64,000 nt of DNA from Thermoplasmata archaeon (GTDB lineage: Archaea; Thermoplasmatota; SW-10-69-26; JACQPN01; JAJPHT01): NCBI GenBank assembly GCA_034667685.1, contig JAXDQU010000079.1, positions 33,891 to 97,890 on the forward strand, written 5' to 3'. Positions 43,149-52,844 of this stretch are shown one piece after another. The translations under genes were made by a program, and so were the position numbers. The stretch's first letter is position 1, and every line of letters starts with the position of its first letter. A model generated the notes under the pieces. The model saw nothing but the letters and a program-made list of their open reading frames with translations. It was not told the DNA's origin and made no database searches.

Positions 43149-44189
43149 TCATGGATGCAACCCCGTGAGGTCGCCCAGGCCGGTCGTCTCGGGCAGCCCG
43201 AACGCGACGTTGAAGTTCTGGATCGCGGCGCCCGCCGTGCCCTTGCACAGGTTGTCCAGCGCGCCGAGCACCACGAGGCGGTTCGTCTCGGGGTCGAGCT
43301 CGAAGCCGACGTGGAACTCGTTCGTGCCCGCGAGGAGCTTCGGCTCGGGGTAGCGGTACAGGCCGGTCCGCTCCTTCACGATGCGCACGAAGGGCTCGTT
43401 CTGATAGCTCGCGCGGAACGCCCTCCAGACGTCCTTCTCGGTGACGCCCGGGCGGACCCACACGTGGCTCGTGGCGAGGATGCCGCGCACCAGTTCGATC
43501 GCGTGGCACGAGAGGCCCGCGCGCAGGCCCGTCTCCTGGAGGATCTCCGCCTCGTGGCGGTGCCCGGCCGGAGCGTAGGGGCGCACGACGTCGCGCCGCT
43601 CGGGGTGGTGCGTCGAGGGGCTCGCCTCGGCGCCCGCGGCGCTGCTGCCGACCTTCGCGTCCACGACGACGGGCATCCCATCCTGGAGCAGGCCGCGGAT
43701 CGGCGCGAGCGAGAGGATCGCGGTCGTGGCGATGCAGCCCGCGCCGCTGACGAGCCTCGCGCCGCGGATCTCGTCGCGGTGCAATTCGGCGATGCCGTAG
43801 GCGCGCTGCGCGAGAAGCTCGGGGTGCGGGTGCTGCCAGCCCTTGTAGTGCTTCGCGTACGCCTCGACGTCGCGCAGGCGGAAGTCGGCGCTCAGGTCGA
43901 ACACGCGGTCCGCGGCCTTGAGGTACTGCGTGATCGCCGGCGCGCTCGTGCCGTGCGGGCCGCAGAGGAACACCGCATCGACGTTGCGCGTCAGCGCGTC
44001 CTCGTGCCGGTGGAACGTCATCTCCGGCGCCGGGCCGCGCAGGTTCGGGTGGACCGTCTTGACCTTCTCGCCCGCGAATCGGTTGCTCGTGGCGTACGCG
44101 ACCTCGATCTCGGGGTGCCGGAGCGCGAGGCGCAGCAGTTCGCCGCCGCCGTAGCCGCTCGCGCCGACGATGCCGATCTTGAACGTCAT
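43149..44189 (-). CDS. lysY: [LysW]-aminoadipyl-phosphate / N-acetyl-gamma-glutamyl-phosphate reductase
   Basis: [21 protein letters not shown]...SGAGCIATT (catalytic Cys). Confidence 0.9.
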
Positions 44190-45040
44190 CGCTTCGCCAC
44201 CTCGACCACGTGGTCGATGATGTGGCCCGGGATGTCGACGCCGGTGGGCGCGACGCTGTTCTTGAACTCCATCGTGTGGTTGACCTCGTGGCACGTCAGG
44301 CCATCCGCGGTCTCCATGAGGTCCATCGCCAACACGCCACCGCCCACGGCGCGGGCCGCGCGCTCGCAGATGTCCTGGATCTCGGGCGTCACGGGGCAGT
44401 TGCTCGCGCGGCCGCCCTGCGCGGTGTTGGTGATGAAGTGCTGGTCGTTGGTGCGGTAGATCGCCGCGACGACGCGGTCGCCGACCCAGAACGCCCGGAT
44501 GTCACGGCCCGGCTTGTCGACGTACTCCTGCGCGTAGGTGATGCCGTGCTGCACGGAGCCCAGCACGCGCTTGTGCTCCAGGAGGGCGAGCGCCGTCTCG
44601 CGGTCGGGCGCCTTCGCAATGAGCCGGCCCCACGAGCCCACGGTGGGCTTGAGCACGGCGGGATAGCCCGCGGACTCGACGGCGCGCAGGCTGCTCTCCT
44701 CCTCGAACGCGAGGTACGTGCGCGGCGTGGGCACGCCGGCGCGCGCGAGGAGCATGCTTGTTAGCGCCTTGTCGCCGCAGTTGACCAGCACGTCGTGCGG
44801 GTTCACGCAGCGCATGCCGTAGCTCTGGAGCGCCATCGTGACGTAGTGGCTCGCGTAGTACGAGATGCCGCGCTCCAGGAAGGCGTCGAAGCCGAGCAGC
44901 TCCTTCGGCGGCTCGTGCACCGGCAGGACCAGCTCGCGGTCGTCGATGGGCACCAGCTCCACGCCGCGCTGGGCGGCGGCGTCCATGAGCATCTTCTCGT
45001 CGTTGCGGATGCGGCTCCAGATCAGGCCGATGCGGACCAT
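44186..45040 (-). CDS. lysX: RimK-family ATP-grasp ligase LysX (alpha-aminoadipate--LysW ligase)
   Basis: Full-length ATP-grasp of the RimK/LysX type: [22 protein letters not shown]...[12 protein letters not shown]. Confidence 0.85.
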
Positions 45041-46573: not shown

Positions 46574-47902
46574 ATGACCGACCGCTTGCAGGCGACCCAG
46601 CGGCGCCTCGCCAGCCAGGGGCAGTTCACGCTGCGCCACCGCGCGGCCGCCCCCTTCGCGTGGACGCTGACGCTGGAGGGCGAGCACGGCGCCGCGACGT
46701 GGGCGCTGCCCGCCGGCGTGCCGTGGGCGGAGGGGGAGACGCGCCCCGCGACGAGCCGCGACGAGCCCCCCGAGCCCCCGCCCGAGTGGGACGCGGGGCG
46801 CTACGCGATGCGCCAGGGCGAGCTCGTGCTCGCGGGCCGCCGCGTGCTGGGGCGCTACCGGCTGGCGCACGAGCGCGGCGTGCAGTGGCGCCTGACGCGC
46901 CTCGACCCGGCCGAGGTCAAGCCGATGCCGGAGCGCGTGCTGCCGATGCTCGCGCACGCGGCGGCCTACCCCGCGGACGAGGAGCGCTGGGCCTTCGAGA
47001 TCAAGTGGGACGGCATCCGCGCGCTCGTGCATTCGCACGATGGACGAGTCAAGGTCCACACGCGCACGCTCCAGGACGTCACGTCGCAGTACCCCGAGCT
47101 GCGCTGCGTGGGCGAGAGCCTGGCGGGCAGGCAGGCGATCCTCGATGGCGAGGTCGTCGCGTTCGACGACGCCGGGCGGCCAAGCTTCCAGCGCCTCCAG
47201 GGCCGCCTCGGCCTTGGATCGATAAGCGCCGTCGAAGAGAAGCGCCGGGAGGTCCCGGTGGCGTACGTGGCGTTCGACATCCTCTACCTGGACGGACGCG
47301 ACCTGACCGGGCACCCGTACGCGGAGCGCCGCGGAATCCTCGAAGGCCTCGGCCTGGAGGGCGGCGCGTGCCGCGTCTCGCAGGCCGTGGTGGGAGACGG
47401 GCACGCCATGCTCGCGATCCCCGGCATCGAGGGCATCGTGGCGAAGCGCCTCGACTCGCCCTACGAGCCGGGGGCGCGAAGCTCGCTCTGGCGCAAGATC
47501 AAGCTCCAGCGCAGGCAGGAGCTCGTGATCGGCGGATACACGCCGGGCCGCGGCGCCCGCGCGGGCCGCATCGGCGCGCTCCTCCTGGGCGTGCACGACG
47601 CGCCGCCCGACGAGGCCCGCGAGCGCGGCGCGCCCCAACGCCTGCTCTACGCGGGCAGCGCGGGCACCGGCTTCACCGAGGAGGAGCTGGCGCGGCTGCG
47701 CTCGCTCCTGGAGCCGCTGCGCCGACCCTCCTCGCCCTTCGCGAACGCGGTGGACAAGAAGGACGCCGTGTTCGTGGAGCCGCGCCTGGTCGCCGAGCTC
47801 GAGTTCACCGAGTGGACCGGCTCGGGGCGCCTGCGCCATCCGTCCTACAAGGGGCTGCGCTTCGACAAGCAGGCGCAGGACGTCGTGCGCGAGGAGATGT
47901 GA
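46574..47902 (+). CDS. ligD: ATP-dependent DNA ligase (LigD ligase domain, NHEJ)
   Basis: FEIKWDGIRAL (KxDG adenylation motif I), then later motifs. Start taken at the internal ATG (MTDRLQATQRRL). Confidence 0.8.
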   Translation: MTDRLQATQRRLASQGQFTLRHRAAAPFAWTLTLEGEHGAATWALPAGVPWAEGETRPATSRDEPPEPPPEWDAGRYAMRQGELVLAGRRVLGRYRLAHERGVQWRLTRLDPAEVKPMPERVLPMLAHAAAYPADEERWAFEIKWDGIRALVHSHDGRVKVHTRTLQDVTSQYPELRCVGESLAGRQAILDGEVVAFDDAGRPSFQRLQGRLGLGSISAVEEKRREVPVAYVAFDILYLDGRDLTGHPYAERRGILEGLGLEGGACRVSQAVVGDGHAMLAIPGIEGIVAKRLDSPYEPGARSSLWRKIKLQRRQELVIGGYTPGRGARAGRIGALLLGVHDAPPDEARERGAPQRLLYAGSAGTGFTEEELARLRSLLEPLRRPSSPFANAVDKKDAVFVEPRLVAELEFTEWTGSGRLRHPSYKGLRFDKQAQDVVREEM

Positions 47903-47951
47903 GATCATTCCCGCCCGCTCGATCTGGAAAGGCTCGCTGAGCTTCGGCCTC

Positions 47952-48698
47952 GTGAACGTCCCCGTGCGCGTCGTGACCGCGCAGCGCAGCAAGGACGTCC
48001 GCTACCACCAATTGCACGACGCCGACGGCGCGCGCATCCAATACAAGAAGGTGTGCAGCGCCGAGGGCGCGGAGGTCGAGGCCGAGCACATCGTCAAGGG
48101 GTGGGAGGCCGGGGGCGGGGCCTACGTGACCGTCACCGACGAGGAGCTCGCCAAGCTCGACCCCCAGAAGAGCGAGACGATCGACATCCAGGACTTCGTG
48201 CACCTCGAGGAGATCGACCCGCTCTACTTCGAGAAGGGCTACTGGCTCGTCCCCGACAAGGGCGCCGGGAAAAGCTATCGCCTCCTGGTCGAGGCCATGC
48301 GCAAGTCGGGGCGCGTCGCCATCGCGCGCGTCGTGATGCGCGGCAAGGAGAGCCTCGTCGCGGTGCGCGCGGTGGGCGACGTGCTCGCGATGGAGACGAT
48401 GCTCCACGGCGACGAGCTGGTGCCGCAGGAGGACCTGGAGGTGGCGCAGGCCGCCGCGCCCGGCGAGCGCGAGCTGGACATGGCCGAGAAGCTCATCGAC
48501 GCGCTCACCACAACCTTCGAGCCCGAGAAGTATCCCGACGAGCATCGCCAACGCGTGCTCGCCTACCTGGAGAGCAAGGCCGAAGGGCGCGAGGTCGTGC
48601 TGCCGCCCAAGGCGGAGGCGCGCCGGCCCGCGGACCTCGTCGACGCGCTCCAGAAGAGCCTCGAGGCCGCGCGGCGCAAGGGCAAGGCGGAAGGATGA
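47952..48698 (+). CDS. ku: Ku DNA end-binding protein. The true start is probably about 48 nt upstream
   Basis: The conserved Ku N-terminal motif RSIWKGSLSFGLVNVPV is encoded in frame at 47913-47963, upstream of the first GTG (47952), with no ATG/GTG/TTG before it. Confidence 0.85.
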   Translation: MNVPVRVVTAQRSKDVRYHQLHDADGARIQYKKVCSAEGAEVEAEHIVKGWEAGGGAYVTVTDEELAKLDPQKSETIDIQDFVHLEEIDPLYFEKGYWLVPDKGAGKSYRLLVEAMRKSGRVAIARVVMRGKESLVAVRAVGDVLAMETMLHGDELVPQEDLEVAQAAAPGERELDMAEKLIDALTTTFEPEKYPDEHRQRVLAYLESKAEGREVVLPPKAEARRPADLVDALQKSLEAARRKGKAEG

Positions 48699-49594
48699 AG
48701 GTCGCGATCCAGGGCCAGCAGGTGGAGCTGTCGAACCTCGACAAGGTGCTCTATCCGCAGGCCGCCTTCACGAAGGCGCACGTCATCGACTACTACCGGC
48801 GCGTCTCCCCCGCCCTCCTGCCCCACCTGCGCGATCGGCCCGTGACGCTGAAACGATATCCCGACGGCGTCGAGGGGAAGTTCTTCTACGAGAAGTCGTG
48901 CCCGCCCTACCGCCCGGCGTTCGTGCGCACGGCGCCGGTCTGGAGCGAGGGGCGCGGCGAGGACATCGACTACTGCGTGCTCGACACGCTGCCCGCGCTC
49001 GTGTGGGCCGCGAACCTCGCCGACCTGGAGATGCACACGTTCCTGCACACCGCGCCCGACGTCGCGCGCCCCCACGCGCTCGTCTTCGACCTCGACCCGG
49101 GCCCGGGGACCGACATCGTGGACTGCGCGCGGCTCGGCCTGCGCGTGCGCGACCTCTTCGAGGGCTTCGGCCTCGCCTGCCTCGCCAAGACGTCGGGCAG
49201 CAAGGGCTTGCAGGTGTACGCGCCGCTCAACACCCCCGCTTCCTACGAGGAAACGAAACCGTTCGCGCGTGCCGTGGCCGAGATGCTGGAGCGCGAGACG
49301 CCCGCGACGGTGACGAGCAACATGAGCAAGGCCGAGCGCGCGGGCCGCGTGCTGGTCGACTGGTCGCAGAACGACGCCCACAAGACGACCGTGTGCGCCT
49401 ACTCGCTTCGCGCCAAGGCGCAGCCGACCGTCAGCACGCCCGTCACGTGGGAGGAGATCGCGCGCTGCGCGTCGGAGGGCAAGGCGGACCTGCTGCGCTT
49501 CCTGACGGAGGACGTGCTGGAGCGCGTGGAGACGCACGGCGACCTGTTCCGGCCCGTCCTCGACCTCGAGCAGGCGCTGCCGGCGCTTGCCTAG
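48695..49594 (+). CDS. LigD polymerase/primase domain (stand-alone PolDom)
   Basis: KFFYEKS...LVFDLDPGPG...SGSKGLQVYAPL: archaeo-eukaryotic primase fold of NHEJ PolDom. ATGA overlap with ku. Confidence 0.85.
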   Translation: MKVAIQGQQVELSNLDKVLYPQAAFTKAHVIDYYRRVSPALLPHLRDRPVTLKRYPDGVEGKFFYEKSCPPYRPAFVRTAPVWSEGRGEDIDYCVLDTLPALVWAANLADLEMHTFLHTAPDVARPHALVFDLDPGPGTDIVDCARLGLRVRDLFEGFGLACLAKTSGSKGLQVYAPLNTPASYEETKPFARAVAEMLERETPATVTSNMSKAERAGRVLVDWSQNDAHKTTVCAYSLRAKAQPTVSTPVTWEEIARCASEGKADLLRFLTEDVLERVETHGDLFRPVLDLEQALPALA

Positions 49595-49595
49595 A

Positions 49596-49671
49596 CGACA
49601 CAGGAAGGGGAGCAAGGGGACGCAAGAAGCTCCTGAGACCACCTTGCTTCCCCTTGCTCCCCTTCCTGTGT
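49596..49671. repeat. Hairpin gacacaggaaggggagcaagggga ... tccccttgctccccttcctgtgtc, after the PolDom stop
   Basis: Near-perfect stem of about 30 bp made of GGGGAGCAAG-type units. Confidence 0.7.
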
Positions 49672-49716
49672 CGGAGCGCCGCGCCGACACACTTCATATC
49701 CTTGGCCGACCCGACC

Positions 49717-51251: not shown

Positions 51252-52173
51252 TGGCGAGCGCCGCGAGCCCCTCGAGCGTGCCCACGCCGCGCGCGGTCTC
51301 CTTGGCGAGGCTCAGCGCGAGGCGCGGCGCCGTCTCGACGCCCGCGGGCTCGGTGCGCCCCCAGGCCCGCGCCACGAGCGCGGCGGCCGCGCCCGCCAGA
51401 AGCATCGGCTTGCGCGCGAGGAGCGCGCCGCCCGCGAGGAGCAGCGCGGCCGCGGGGACGAGCGCGTCGCGGATGGGCGCGACCGCGCGGTTGCGGCCCC
51501 AGGCGCGCGCCTGCGCCGGGACGTCGTTGCGCGCGTACCAGCGCTGCTTGCGCAGGTAGCCCGCGAGCGTGCCGTCGATCTCGGGCGGGTCATGGAGTAC
51601 GAGGGGGCGCGGGTCCCAGACGACCTCGAAGCCCGCGTCGCGCAGGCGCCAGGCGAGGTCGTAGTCCTCGGCGCAGCAGAGCGTCTCGTCGAAGCCGCCC
51701 ACCGCGAGGATCGCGTCGCGCCGGTACGCGACGTTGCTCGTGATGAAGCCGCGGTAGCGCACGCGCGCGTCGTCGTCCTCCATGCGGCCCAGGAAGGTGC
51801 GGCGGGGCATGCGCAGCGCGCCGCCCACGCCCGTGATCCAGGGCTTCTCGGCGAAGACCTCGGCGATGGCGGTGAGCCAGTCGCGCTCCGGCGCGCAGTC
51901 GCCGTCGGTGAACGCGACGATCGGCGCGCGCGCGCCCAGGACGCCCACGTTGCGCGCCGCGCTGGGGCCGTGGCCCAGGTCTTCGAGCACGCGGATGCCG
52001 CTGGCGCGCGCGATGTCGCGGCAGCCGTCCGTGCTGCCCCCGTCCACGAGCACGACCTCGAAGCGCTCGGGCGGGAAGTCCTGCGCCTCGAGCGCGTCCA
52101 GGCACGCGGGCAGCGTCGCGGCCTCGTTGCGGCACGGGATCACGACGCTGATGGCCGGATCGTCCCCCCTCAC
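51154..52173 (-). CDS. Family-2 glycosyltransferase
   Basis: ISVVIPCRNEAATL...VVLVDGGSTDGC...FTDGDCAPE...CCAEDYDL. GTG start overlapping the HAD stop. The last ~30 codons (GGFRGRSPLKSASLQAPYKESLFLTSGGFAP) are read out of the hairpin element. Confidence 0.7.
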   Translation of the reverse strand: MRGDDPAISVVIPCRNEAATLPACLDALEAQDFPPERFEVVLVDGGSTDGCRDIARASGIRVLEDLGHGPSAARNVGVLGARAPIVAFTDGDCAPERDWLTAIAEVFAEKPWITGVGGALRMPRRTFLGRMEDDDARVRYRGFITSNVAYRRDAILAVGGFDETLCCAEDYDLAWRLRDAGFEVVWDPRPLVLHDPPEIDGTLAGYLRKQRWYARNDVPAQARAWGRNRAVAPIRDALVPAAALLLAGGALLARKPMLLAGAAAALVARAWGRTEPAGVETAPRLALSLAKETARGVGTLEGLAALARGGFRGRSPLKSASLQAPYKESLFLTSGGFAP

Positions 52174-52844
52174 GCGCCCGCCTCCTGCGCGGGGAGCCAC
52201 GACTCGGAGACCCAGTGCGCCACGCCTTCGCCGCCTGGCAGCAGGAGCACCTCGTCGGCCTGCTCCTTCAGCTCGGGCACCGCGTTCATGACGGCCATGC
52301 CGTGGCCCACGGCGCGCAGGAGCGGGACGTCGTTCTCGCCGTCGCCCGCCGCGGCGCACTCGCGCGGATCGACGCCCAGCGCGCGCAGCGCCGCGAGGAG
52401 CCCGACCGCCTTGTCGACGCCGCGCGGGAGGATCATCACGCGGTCGCGGTTGCGCACGAGGTCCCACGGCTGGCCGCGCAGGTGCTCGGCGACGCGGTCG
52501 TGGTGCGCGGCGTCGAAGCTGGCGAGGACCTCGCCGAACTCCGCCTCGACGTCGAGGCCCTCGATCGCCTTGCGCACGTCGCCCAGCGTGGGGTGCGTGC
52601 GGCGCGCGGGGCCCCCGGCGAGCTTCCAGATCGCGCCGTTCTCCGCGACGAAGGCGTCGACGTGCTTGCCCACGCGCGCCTCGATCTCGCGCATCGTGCG
52701 GCCGGTGACGACGACGACCTTGAGCCCCCGCGCGCGGGCGCGGTCGAGCACGTCGAGCGCGCGCGGCACCGGAAGGAGGTCGACGGTGGTGAGCGTGCGG
52801 TCGTAGTCGACCGCGAGGGCGCGGATCTCACGTGGCCCGGACAC
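52170..52844 (-). CDS. HAD-superfamily phosphatase (Cof/HAD-IIB type, sugar-phosphate phosphatase)
   Basis: LAVDYDRTLT (DxD motif I)...VVVVTGRT...GDGENDVPLL. Confidence 0.75.
   Translation of the reverse strand: MSGPREIRALAVDYDRTLTTVDLLPVPRALDVLDRARARGLKVVVVTGRTMREIEARVGKHVDAFVAENGAIWKLAGGPARRTHPTLGDVRKAIEGLDVEAEFGEVLASFDAAHHDRVAEHLRGQPWDLVRNRDRVMILPRGVDKAVGLLAALRALGVDPRECAAAGDGENDVPLLRAVGHGMAVMNAVPELKEQADEVLLLPGGEGVAHWVSESWLPAQEAGA

What the first reader, a model, noticed from the sequence alone, without database searches (positions are those of the whole stretch)
46574..49594. Three-gene split NHEJ module (LigD ligase, Ku, LigD PolDom), with the Ku start codon missing
Ligase, Ku and primase-polymerase are separate, translationally coupled genes (ATGA overlaps) instead of a fused LigD, an arrangement seen in a few archaea. 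The conserved Ku N-terminus (RSIWKGSLSFGLVNVPV) lies in frame upstream of the first available GTG (47952), with only ATC/ATT codons at the expected start (47904-47909). An ATG exists one base out of frame inside the ligase stop (gagATGtga). Either Ku starts on a non-canonical ATT/ATC codon, or there is a programmed frameshift or a sequencing error.
Basis: partly seen in the sequence, partly recalled or inferred. Interest (0 to 1): 0.55.

Follow-up and report, generated by a model that had tools for sequence, protein, structure and literature searches.

The report
Archaeal Ku gene starting on ATT
In this DNA-break-repair operon of a soil archaeon, the Ku gene has no normal start codon and almost certainly starts on the rare codon ATT, four bases after the upstream ligase gene ends. 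Seven of eight related lineages share an ATT or ATC there, so it is real biology and not a sequencing error.

Summary
Window 46574-49594 holds an NHEJ ligase, Ku and a LigD-type primase-polymerase on the + strand. Ku has no in-frame ATG/GTG/TTG between the stop at 47526 and the GTG at 47952. The public annotation (MEA3201058.1, 248 aa) uses that GTG and so cuts off the conserved N-terminus PARSIWKGSLSFGL.

A sequencing error is excluded. The same junction occurs in four other assemblies. Seven of eight diverged lineages (74-93% amino-acid identity) have ATT (5) or ATC (2) at the codon that is ATG in one nested lineage and in both outgroups. The 13 codons between ATT and the GTG vary almost only at third positions, and Ku dN/dS is 0.19-0.36. 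ATT makes up only 2 of 145 internal Ile codons in these genes.

The best explanation is initiation at AUU 47907, 4 nt after the ligase UGA, by termination-reinitiation and/or the AGGAG 10 nt upstream. This probably gives low Ku output tied to ligase translation. A +1 frameshift is unlikely.

The split operon itself is ordinary. The "ligase" gene also carries a dead phosphoesterase domain. This is a new, well-supported example of a known rarity (near-cognate start codons), unusual because the host is archaeal and the feature is conserved across a clade.

The parts
46574..47902 (+). NHEJ ATP-dependent DNA ligase gene (442 aa, stop TGA 47900-47902), with a degenerate N-terminal PE domain
   Evidence: Pfam DNA_ligase_A_M (E=7e-34) and DNA_ligase_A_C (E=1e-26). 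TIGR02779 scores 265 bits against a cutoff of 227.75. Homologs were found.
46622..46909 (+). Degenerate, probably inactive LigD 3'-phosphoesterase (PE) domain inside the ligase gene
   Evidence: tblastn with intact PE domains gives E=2e-9 across the whole domain. Pfam LigD_N reaches only E=0.027. The catalytic motif HHA..LHWDLRLE is replaced by RHRAAAPFAWTLTLE, EDHP by ETRP, and there are two deletions of 8-9 aa.
47891..47896 (+). GAGGAG, a Shine-Dalgarno-like sequence. It encodes the ligase C-terminal Glu-Glu and lies 10 nt upstream of the ATT.
   Evidence: It is invariant in all 8 clade lineages and both outgroups. SD-like GGAGGTGA and GAGGAGGT motifs precede a few other genes in the window. 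A function as SD is inferred, not shown.
47903..47906 (+). 4-nt spacer between the ligase stop and the Ku start. In this lineage it includes the alternative near-cognate ATC 47904-47906.
   Evidence: The spacer is poorly conserved (GATC, TAGC, CAAC, GGAC, CATC, TGAG, CACC, GAC) while the flanks are conserved.
47907..47909 (+). ATT, the proposed Ku initiation codon
   Evidence: It aligns with the ATG of L003, L098 and L099, and with ATT or ATC in L001, L002, L004, L005, L094 and L095. ATT is only 2 of 145 internal Ile codons in these genes.
47907..48698 (+). Ku gene as re-annotated (263 aa plus TGA)
   Evidence: PF02735 and TIGR02772 hits. It aligns from its N-terminus to solved bacterial Ku structures 9vnq, 9i91 and 8v53. 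dN/dS is 0.19-0.36.
47952..47954 (+). GTG, the first canonical in-frame start. The public annotation uses it (MEA3201058.1, 248 aa), but it is probably not the true start.
   Evidence: The 13 codons upstream vary at codon positions [3,0,9], which shows they are translated.
48695..49594 (+). LigD-type primase-polymerase (PolDom) gene, 299 aa. Its ATG overlaps the Ku stop (ATGA at 48695-48698).
   Evidence: PF21686 (E=5e-86) and TIGR02778 at 272 bits against a cutoff of 214.7. The 4-nt overlap is conserved in L001-L005, L098 and L099.
49596..49673 (.). 31-nt inverted repeat (97% complementary, 16-nt loop) immediately after the PolDom stop. It may be an operon-end hairpin.
   Evidence: It is unique in the window. 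Its function was not tested.

Best explanation
The three genes form an ordinary archaeo-prokaryotic NHEJ operon (dead-PE-ligase, Ku, PolDom) in a high-GC Thermoplasmata archaeon. What is unusual is that Ku translation starts at the near-cognate codon AUU (47907-47909).

This codon lies 4 nt after the ligase UGA and 10 nt after an AGGAG. Initiator Met-tRNA would read it with a third-position mismatch, giving a full-length 263-aa Ku beginning (M)PARSIWKG.

The stop-to-start distance is +4 nt. The most likely route is therefore that ribosomes finishing the ligase reinitiate locally (termination-reinitiation), possibly helped by the SD-like AGGAG. This would tie Ku synthesis to ligase translation and probably keep it low. 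PolDom is in turn coupled to Ku by the ATGA overlap.

An ancestral ATG became ATT at the base of this clade and has been kept as ATT or ATC in most descendants.

What is shown:
- there is no canonical start;
- the N-terminal codons are translated;
- the ATT is positionally homologous to the ATG of relatives;
- the feature is conserved;
- Ku is under purifying selection.

What is inferred:
- that initiation occurs exactly at AUU;
- that it begins with Met;
- the reinitiation or SD mechanism;
- the low output.
For: 1. There is no in-frame ATG/GTG/TTG from the stop at 47526 to the GTG at 47952. The same holds for L001, L002 and L004, and from the junction sequences also for L095; L094 has none within 12 codons upstream of the conserved Trp.
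2. The aligned codon is ATT in the window, L002, L004, L005 and L094. It is ATC in L001 and L095. It is ATG in L003, where the ligase TGA lies in frame two codons upstream, so that ATG must be the start. It is also ATG in the outgroups L098 and L099, which have the same synteny.
3. The window junction is identical in four other assemblies from four other samples.
4. Codons 2-14, between the ATT and the GTG, vary at codon positions [3,0,9]. Seven codons change only synonymously and three change conservatively.
5. Ku dN/dS is 0.19-0.36 at dS 0.39-0.65.
6. Internal Ile codons in the clade's NHEJ genes are ATT 2, ATC 142 and ATA 1, with GC3 0.92-0.97. At this one codon ATT occurs in 5 of 7 lineages.
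7. TIGR02772 and the solved Ku structures align from the xxIWKG N-terminus.
8. All 82 other Ku loci have a canonical start there.
9. The tree places L003 (ATG) as sister to the window (94% bootstrap), inside the ATT/ATC clade, with L005 basal.
10. Termination-reinitiation operates at distances of -8 to +10 nt in Haloferax and E. coli (PMC10666635).
11. The junction RNA is not structured (z=+1.49).
12. An archaeal host is supported by the NCBI label, by ELP3 on the same contig with archaeal nearest relatives, and by HVO-type HTH and V4R proteins.
Against: - There is no direct evidence of initiation, such as N-terminal peptides or ribosome profiling.
- In E. coli, AUU and AUC initiate at only about 0.3-2% of AUG. 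It is unclear whether that yields enough of a dimeric end-binding protein, and the efficiency in archaea is unknown.
- Three of eight lineages carry a canonical ATG by three different routes: at the site (L003), one codon before the Trp (L005), and nine codons upstream (L094). This suggests the ATT may be a tolerated defect rather than an adaptation.
- The AGGAG is also constrained by the ligase coding sequence, and SD motifs are rare in this window.
- Other near-cognate codons cannot be excluded as the actual initiation site. These are ATC 47904 and the conserved ACG 47880.
- The clade is known from only eight lineages, all metagenomic.
Confidence: 0.8

Rival explanations
1. Programmed +1 ribosomal frameshift at the ligase stop, as in prfB. 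A fraction of ribosomes skips the U of UGA and continues in the Ku frame, making a ligase-Ku fusion protein.
For: In the seven ATT/ATC lineages Ku lies in the +1 frame relative to the ligase. The Ku frame is open upstream through the ligase 3' end. An SD-like GAGGAG sits just upstream of the stop, as in prfB.
Against: The codon before the stop is AUG, GCG, ACG, UCG or ACU. None allows the P-site tRNA to re-pair in the +1 frame, and there is no conserved slippery motif. In L003 a 1-nt deletion puts Ku in the ligase frame behind an in-frame TGA, and in the outgroups the spacing is 1 or 5 nt, so the frame relation is not conserved. No ligase-Ku fusion appears among the 240 listed Ku or ligase homologs. 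ATT rather than ATC at this codon is unexpected for an ordinary internal Ile codon. Open alternative frames are usual at GC3 of 0.95.
Confidence: 0.04
2. The annotated GTG at 47952 is the real start. Ku lacks its first beta-strand, and the upstream conservation is due to something else, such as a regulatory or SD region.
For: This is the gene call in GenBank and JGI for the window and for L001 and L002. A GTG at this position is conserved in all lineages.
Against: The upstream 13 codons show a coding pattern of change: third-position and conservative replacements only. The family profile and the solved structures include these residues. The GTG encodes the conserved Val of GLVNVP in every Ku, so its conservation is explained by coding. 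Gene callers chose different downstream starts in different relatives: ATG in L004, TTG in L095 and ATG in L005.
Confidence: 0.05
3. Initiation is non-canonical but occurs at a different near-cognate codon. Candidates are ATC 47904 or the conserved ACG 47880, which lies inside the ligase 3' end and would give an MSCARRCEI extension.
For: ATC directly precedes ATT in the window and in L005. ACG at the equivalent of 47880 is present in all lineages checked (window, L001, L002, L004, L005). In L094 it has become an ATG, which JGI called as the start.
Against: ATC 47904 is AGC, AAC, GAC, GAG or ACC in other lineages. The ACG is fixed by the ligase codons GAC-GTC and has no SD-like sequence before it. 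L003 and the outgroups start exactly at the codon aligned with ATT, and the ACG route is closed there by an in-frame stop.
Confidence: 0.1
4. A sequencing or assembly error, or a decaying pseudogene.
For: The source is a single metagenome-assembled genome, and the start codon is a single-base change away from ATG.
Against: The junction is identical in four other assemblies. ATT or ATC occurs in six other diverged lineages. Ku is intact in all of them, with dN/dS of 0.19-0.36.
Confidence: 0.01

Closest known systems
AUU-initiated genes of E. coli (infC, pcnB)
   Same: A near-cognate AUU stands in place of AUG at an otherwise normal ribosome-binding site and gives low, potentially stringency-dependent expression. 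Near-cognates initiate with Met at about 1-2% of AUG (10.1101/063800; PMC4705826).
   Different: Those genes are bacterial and are policed by IF3. Here the host is archaeal, with aIF1 and aIF2. The codon alternates between AUU and AUC and lies 4 nt after an upstream stop. No autoregulatory logic is evident for Ku.
Inferred ATT start of Asgard archaeal tubulin AtubA (PMC13394414)
   Same: It is an archaeal MAG gene whose deposited protein lacks the first beta-strand. A rare ATT upstream restores the conserved N-terminus and a plausible RBS distance.
   Different: That case rests on a single sequence and a structure prediction. Here the ATT or ATC is supported by eight lineages, two outgroups, codon-position statistics and codon-usage contrast.
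Translational coupling by termination-reinitiation in Haloferax volcanii and E. coli (PMC6728339, PMC10666635)
   Same: The genes are unidirectional with a stop-to-start distance inside the -8 to +10 nt window. An SD lies inside the upstream gene's 3' end. The Ku/Pol junction is the classic ATGA overlap.
   Different: The gene pairs studied there use canonical start codons. Reinitiation on AUU or AUC has not been tested in archaea, as far as the papers read here show.
Archaeo-prokaryotic NHEJ operon of Methanocella paludicola; bacterial LigD/Ku (PMC4797286)
   Same: Ku plus ligase and primase-polymerase are encoded as separate co-oriented genes. All three pass the NCBIfam NHEJ models.
   Different: M. 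paludicola has an active stand-alone PE. Here the PE is fused to the ligase and has lost every catalytic residue, and no other PE is present in the window.
prfB (RF2) programmed +1 frameshift
   Same: There is an in-frame UGA preceded by an SD-like sequence, and the downstream ORF is in the +1 frame.
   Different: There is no CUU-U-type slippery codon, the P-site codon is variable, and the frame relation is lost in L003 and the outgroups.

Membership tests
Prokaryotic Ku (TIGR02772 / PF02735) | Full-length match to the Ku beta-barrel profile above the curated cutoff | tested here: met
   TIGR02772 scores 293 bits against a cutoff of 150, covering residues 5-253 and profile positions 1-259. PF02735 gives E=2.5e-45.
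Prokaryotic Ku (TIGR02772 / PF02735) | Sequence homology to experimentally solved bacterial Ku, including the N-terminal strand | tested here: met
   9vnq (E=1e-49), 9i91 and 8v53 all align from SIWKG.
Prokaryotic Ku (TIGR02772 / PF02735) | DNA-end binding and recruitment of the ligase | not testable with these tools
   This needs biochemistry.
LigD-type NHEJ enzymes (ligase, PolDom, PE) | Ligase domain matching the NHEJ-specific model | tested here: met
   TIGR02779 scores 265 bits against a cutoff of 227.75.
LigD-type NHEJ enzymes (ligase, PolDom, PE) | Primase-polymerase domain matching the NHEJ-specific model | tested here: met
   TIGR02778 scores 272 bits against a cutoff of 214.7. PF21686 gives E=5e-86.
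LigD-type NHEJ enzymes (ligase, PolDom, PE) | 3'-phosphoesterase domain with the catalytic His/Asp/Arg/His/Tyr set | tested here: not met
   The domain is homologous (tblastn E=2e-9). However, Pfam LigD_N scores 15 bits against a cutoff of 31, and all catalytic positions are substituted or deleted.
Genes with a non-canonical (AUU/AUC) initiation codon | No canonical in-frame start between the upstream stop and the conserved N-terminus | tested here: met
   This holds for the window, L001, L002 and L004 and, from the junction sequence, for L095.
Genes with a non-canonical (AUU/AUC) initiation codon | The stretch upstream of the first canonical start evolves as coding sequence | tested here: met
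   Variable sites fall at codon positions [3,0,9], and seven codons change only synonymously.
Genes with a non-canonical (AUU/AUC) initiation codon | The candidate codon is positionally homologous to the canonical start of orthologs | tested here: met
   It aligns with the ATG of L003, L098 and L099.
Genes with a non-canonical (AUU/AUC) initiation codon | Direct demonstration of initiation at that codon (N-terminal peptide, start-site profiling, toeprint) | not testable with these tools
   The organism is uncultured and no such data are available here.
Termination-reinitiation coupled gene pair | Co-oriented genes with a stop-to-start distance of about -8 to +10 nt | tested here: met
   The ligase/Ku distance is +4 nt and the Ku/Pol distance is -4 nt. 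The criterion comes from PMC10666635.
Termination-reinitiation coupled gene pair | Downstream translation depends on upstream translation | not testable with these tools
   This needs a reporter with a premature stop in the ligase.
Programmed +1 frameshift (prfB type) | Conserved slippery P-site codon that re-pairs in the +1 frame at an in-frame stop | tested here: not met
   The P-site codon is AUG, GCG, ACG, UCG or ACU, and none re-pairs.
Programmed +1 frameshift (prfB type) | Frame relation conserved among relatives | tested here: not met
   In L003 Ku is in the ligase frame. The outgroups have 1- or 5-nt spacers.

The most novel reading that the evidence does not exclude
The weak AUU/AUC start is an adaptive regulatory device rather than a tolerated lesion. 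Ku synthesis, and PolDom synthesis through the ATGA overlap, would be set by ligase translation and by the cell's start-codon stringency (aIF1 activity). NHEJ proteins would then rise when stringency relaxes, for example in non-growing or stressed cells. This would be an archaeal counterpart of the infC AUU logic, applied to a repair pathway.
Probability: 0.12. Interest if true: 0.65.

Novelty: new member of a known kind. Interest (0 to 1): 0.45.

Why it matters
Archaea are generally said to start translation on AUG, GUG or UUG (PMC4705826). Conserved near-cognate starts are documented in very few prokaryotic genes, and E. coli has only infC and pcnB. This case is a natural, phylogenetically replicated example in an archaeal lineage: ATG, ATT and ATC occur at the same site in close relatives.

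It gives a ready-made allelic series for measuring how archaeal ribosomes handle AUU and AUC, both de novo and during termination-reinitiation.

There is also a practical consequence. Gene callers truncate this Ku by 14-21 residues in GenBank and IMG (P0001, P0003, P0004, P0005), removing the first beta-strand. This would mislead structural or biochemical work on archaeal NHEJ.

Tried and rejected
- The genome-contig scan returned only distant Ku (33-52% identity) and none of the clade.
- The metagenome-contig scan only re-found L001 and L005. I reused the other 78 loci as a background set.
- Rfam found only one tRNA-Cys in the window. No rRNA was found, so the anti-SD sequence could not be read.
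- I looked for RNA structure at the junction. The alifold pairing of CGCGAGG with CCTCGTG shows no covariation, and the single-sequence fold is less stable than shuffles (z=+1.49). I dropped this as a mechanism.
- A GC3-based scan of the window for other genes with a long open, canonical-start-free 5' stretch found no convincing second case (Pfam checks). This is only 64 kb, so it says little about the genome.
- The GAC->GAT change that creates an upstream ATG in L094 is not clearly selected, because GAT makes up 10% of Asp codons.
- Literature searches found no systematic report of AUU or AUC starts in archaea. They found one inferred case, Asgard AtubA.
Full report
**1. What is in the sequence**

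Window 46574-49594 carries three co-oriented genes on the + strand.
- The first (ATG 46574 to TGA 47900-47902, 442 aa) matches Pfam DNA_ligase_A_M and DNA_ligase_A_C. It also matches the NHEJ-specific ligase model TIGR02779 (265 bits, cutoff 227.75).
- The third (ATG 48695 to TAG 49592-49594, 299 aa) matches LigD_Prim-Pol (E=5e-86) and TIGR02778.
- Between them lies Ku, matching PF02735 (E=2.5e-45) and TIGR02772 (293 bits, cutoff 150).

The Ku frame is open from a stop at 47526. It contains no ATG, GTG or TTG until the GTG at 47952. Upstream of that GTG the frame reads ...E I(ATC 47904) I(ATT 47907) P A R S I W K G S L S F G L V N V P V. The NCBIfam Ku profile begins at residue 5 of this stretch, and the Pfam domain begins at SFGL.

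Two details need adjusting. Only the Ku/Pol junction is an ATGA overlap (48695-48698). The ATG at 47897 is simply the last codon of the ligase, and it is GCG, ACG, TCG or ACT in relatives.

**2. Whose sequence it is**

The Ku protein as deposited is MEA3201058.1, "end-binding protein Ku [Thermoplasmata archaeon]". It is 248 aa and is called from the GTG.

ELP3 on the same 108-kb contig has archaeal nearest named relatives, including Aciduliprofundum boonei. The window also encodes a LysW/LysX lysine cluster and HVO_0163-type HTH and V4R proteins. An archaeal host is thus supported, though no rRNA is present in the window.

**3. It is not an error**

The junction CGCGAGGAGATGTGAGATCATTCCCGCCCGCTCGATCTGG is identical in four other assemblies. 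Two are from independent JGI samples (L092, L093) and two are Logan assemblies (L096, L097). L093 differs from the window a few bases downstream, so it is a distinct strain.

**4. Relatives**

A search of 5.8 billion proteins found only five other Ku proteins above 75% identity. A ligase search added two more contigs of the clade that cover the junction, L094 and L095. This gives eight distinct lineages at 74-93% amino-acid identity.

Several relatives are annotated with truncated N-termini (MNVPV..., VNVPV..., MSAQR...). Their DNA shows the same situation as the window:

| Lineage | Junction |
|---|---|
| window | ...gaggag atg TGA gatc ATT ccc gcc cgc tcg atc tgg |
| L001 | ...gcg TGA tagc ATC ccg ccg cgc tcc ctc tgg |
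| L002 | ...acg TGA caac ATT ccc cgc tcg ctc tgg |
| L004 | ...acg TGA ggac ATT ccc cgc tcg atc tgg |
| L005 | ...tcg TGA catc ATT ccc cgc tcg atg tgg |
| L094 | ...acg TGA tgag ATT ccc gcc cga tcg atc tgg |
| L095 | ...acg TGA cacc ATC ccc gcc cgc tcg ctc tgg |
| L003 | ...act TGA gac ATG ccg cga tcg ctc tgg |

In L003 the ligase TGA lies in the Ku frame two codons before the ATG, so that ATG must be the start.

Two outgroups at 61-64% identity have the same LysW-HCS / ligase-Ku-Pol synteny. They read TGA gccgc ATG ccg cgc tcc atc tgg (L098) and TGA c ATG gtg cgc agc atc tgg (L099).

The codon at 47907 is therefore the positional homolog of a genuine ATG start. It is ATT in five lineages and ATC in two.

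**5. The N-terminal stretch is translated, and Ku is functional**

Across six lineages, the 13 codons between this codon and the GTG vary at codon positions [3,0,9]. Seven codons change only synonymously, and three change conservatively (I/L/M, L/I, S/G). The 4-nt spacer upstream is not conserved.

Ku dN/dS within the clade is 0.19-0.36 at dS 0.39-0.65, including pairs in which both members have ATT or ATC. Solved bacterial Ku structures (9vnq, 9i91, 8v53) align from the xxIWKG N-terminus.

The clade is therefore exceptional.

**6. The codon does not behave like an ordinary Ile codon**

In the NHEJ genes of these eight lineages GC3 is 0.92-0.97, and T makes up 2.4% of third positions. Internal Ile codons are ATT 2, ATC 142 and ATA 1. 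Yet ATT occupies this site in 5 of 7 lineages. That fits a site under start-codon constraint, not a sense codon inside a longer fusion ORF.

**7. History**

A neighbour-joining tree of the concatenated ligase, Ku and Pol proteins puts L003 (ATG) as sister to the window (94% bootstrap). L003 sits inside the ATT/ATC clade, with L005 basal (90%).

The simplest history has four steps:
- one ATG->ATT change at the base of the clade;
- two ATT->ATC changes;
- one reversion to ATG in L003, accompanied by a 1-nt spacer deletion.

Two other lineages carry an additional canonical ATG elsewhere. L005 has one a single codon before the Trp. L094 has one nine codons upstream, made by a GAC->GAT change in the overlapping ligase codon, which turns a conserved ACG into ATG in the Ku frame.

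So a canonical ATG is present by three different routes in three of eight lineages. This hints that the weak start is costly, although GAT is not rare enough (10% of Asp codons) to prove selection in L094.

**8. Mechanism**

The most likely reading is initiation by initiator Met-tRNA on AUU 47907. In E. coli, near-cognates yield Met-initiated protein at about 1-2% of AUG (10.1101/063800), or 0.3% for ATT as cited in PMC10666635.

The start lies +4 nt from the ligase stop. [quoted passage not shown] An invariant GAGGAG lies 10 nt upstream, but it also encodes the conserved ligase C-terminus, and SD motifs are uncommon in this window.

The junction RNA shows no significant structure (z=+1.49) and no covarying pairs. 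PolDom overlaps the Ku stop by ATGA in every lineage, so it is probably coupled to Ku.

The choice between reinitiation and SD-guided de novo initiation, and the actual output, are inferred and not shown.

**9. Rivals**

- **A prfB-like +1 frameshift making a ligase-Ku fusion.** The P-site codon is variable and not slippery. The frame relation differs in L003 and the outgroups. No fusion protein occurs among 240 listed homologs. The ATT bias also argues against it.
- **A start at the GTG.** This conflicts with the coding pattern upstream and with the family profile.
- **Other near-cognates (ATC 47904, ACG 47880).** These cannot be excluded, but they lack positional support from L003 and the outgroups.
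- **Sequencing error or pseudogene.** Both are excluded.

**10. Comparison with what is known**

Separate, operonic NHEJ genes are common in bacteria and known in archaea (Methanocella paludicola; PMC4797286). The module itself is therefore ordinary, although Ku is rare in archaea, with 19 sequences in OrthoDB (PMC11936186).

Non-canonical starts are a known rarity. In E. coli, AUU is used by infC and pcnB. Reviews describe archaea as using AUG, GUG and UUG (PMC4705826). One Asgard tubulin gene has been inferred to use ATT on similar grounds (PMC13394414).

This case is a new and much better supported member of that kind. It is archaeal, replicated across a clade, and has ATG, ATT and ATC alleles in close relatives.

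**11. Other things seen**

The ligase N-terminus (46622-46909) is a degenerate LigD phosphoesterase domain with all catalytic residues lost. No other PE is present in the window. A 31-nt inverted repeat follows the PolDom stop.

**12. Verdict**

The non-canonical-start reading is supported at about 0.8 for [quoted passage not shown]. Interest is moderate at 0.45, and the novelty class is a new member of a known kind.

Noticed in passing
window 46622-46909 (+), inside the ligase gene: The ligase N-terminus is a degenerate LigD 3'-phosphoesterase domain. It is homologous over its whole length (tblastn E=2e-9), but every catalytic His, Asp, Arg and Tyr position is replaced and there are two deletions of 8-9 aa. 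No other PE homolog occurs in the 64-kb window. Relatives show a graded decay, from intact (P0170, P0185) through partly decayed (P0133, P0152) to fully decayed (window, P0122, P0126).
   Followed up: partly
window 49596-49626 / 49643-49673: A 31-nt inverted repeat (97% complementary, 16-nt loop) starts 2 nt after the PolDom stop codon. It is unique in the window. No equivalent was seen in L001, where a convergent DUF892 gene follows Pol after 5 nt. It may be an operon-end hairpin or a protein-binding palindrome.
   Followed up: partly
L094 2094-2096; L005 3928-3930; L003 922-924: Three of the eight clade lineages carry a canonical ATG for Ku, each by a different route. In L094 a GAC->GAT change in the overlapping ligase codon turns a conserved ACG into ATG nine codons upstream. 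In L005 an Ile->Met change sits one codon before the conserved Trp. In L003 the start site itself reads ATG, together with a 1-nt spacer deletion.
   Followed up: partly
window 47952; P0001, P0003, P0004, P0005 (public records): GenBank and IMG gene calls truncate this Ku by 14-21 residues in at least four lineages. The cause is that gene callers do not consider ATT or ATC starts. The deposited proteins lack the first beta-strand.
   Followed up: yes
window-wide gene starts: Few predicted genes have an SD-like motif upstream, and many may be leaderless. The clear exceptions are GGAGGTGA before the GTG of the minus-strand gene at 52170-52844, GAGGAGGT before 36490, and AAGGTGATC before the minus-strand lysX-like gene (44186-45040, start at 45040). 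These suggest a 16S 3' end of the usual GAUCACCUCC type.
   Followed up: no
P0007 (384-aa Ku homolog, 1316-nt JGI contig): A Ku homolog with an internal tandem duplication of about 120 residues of the core (the block ...EKSRTIDIEDFVDL...MMETMIFADEVVP... occurs twice). It may be an assembly artefact or a real duplicated Ku.
   Followed up: no
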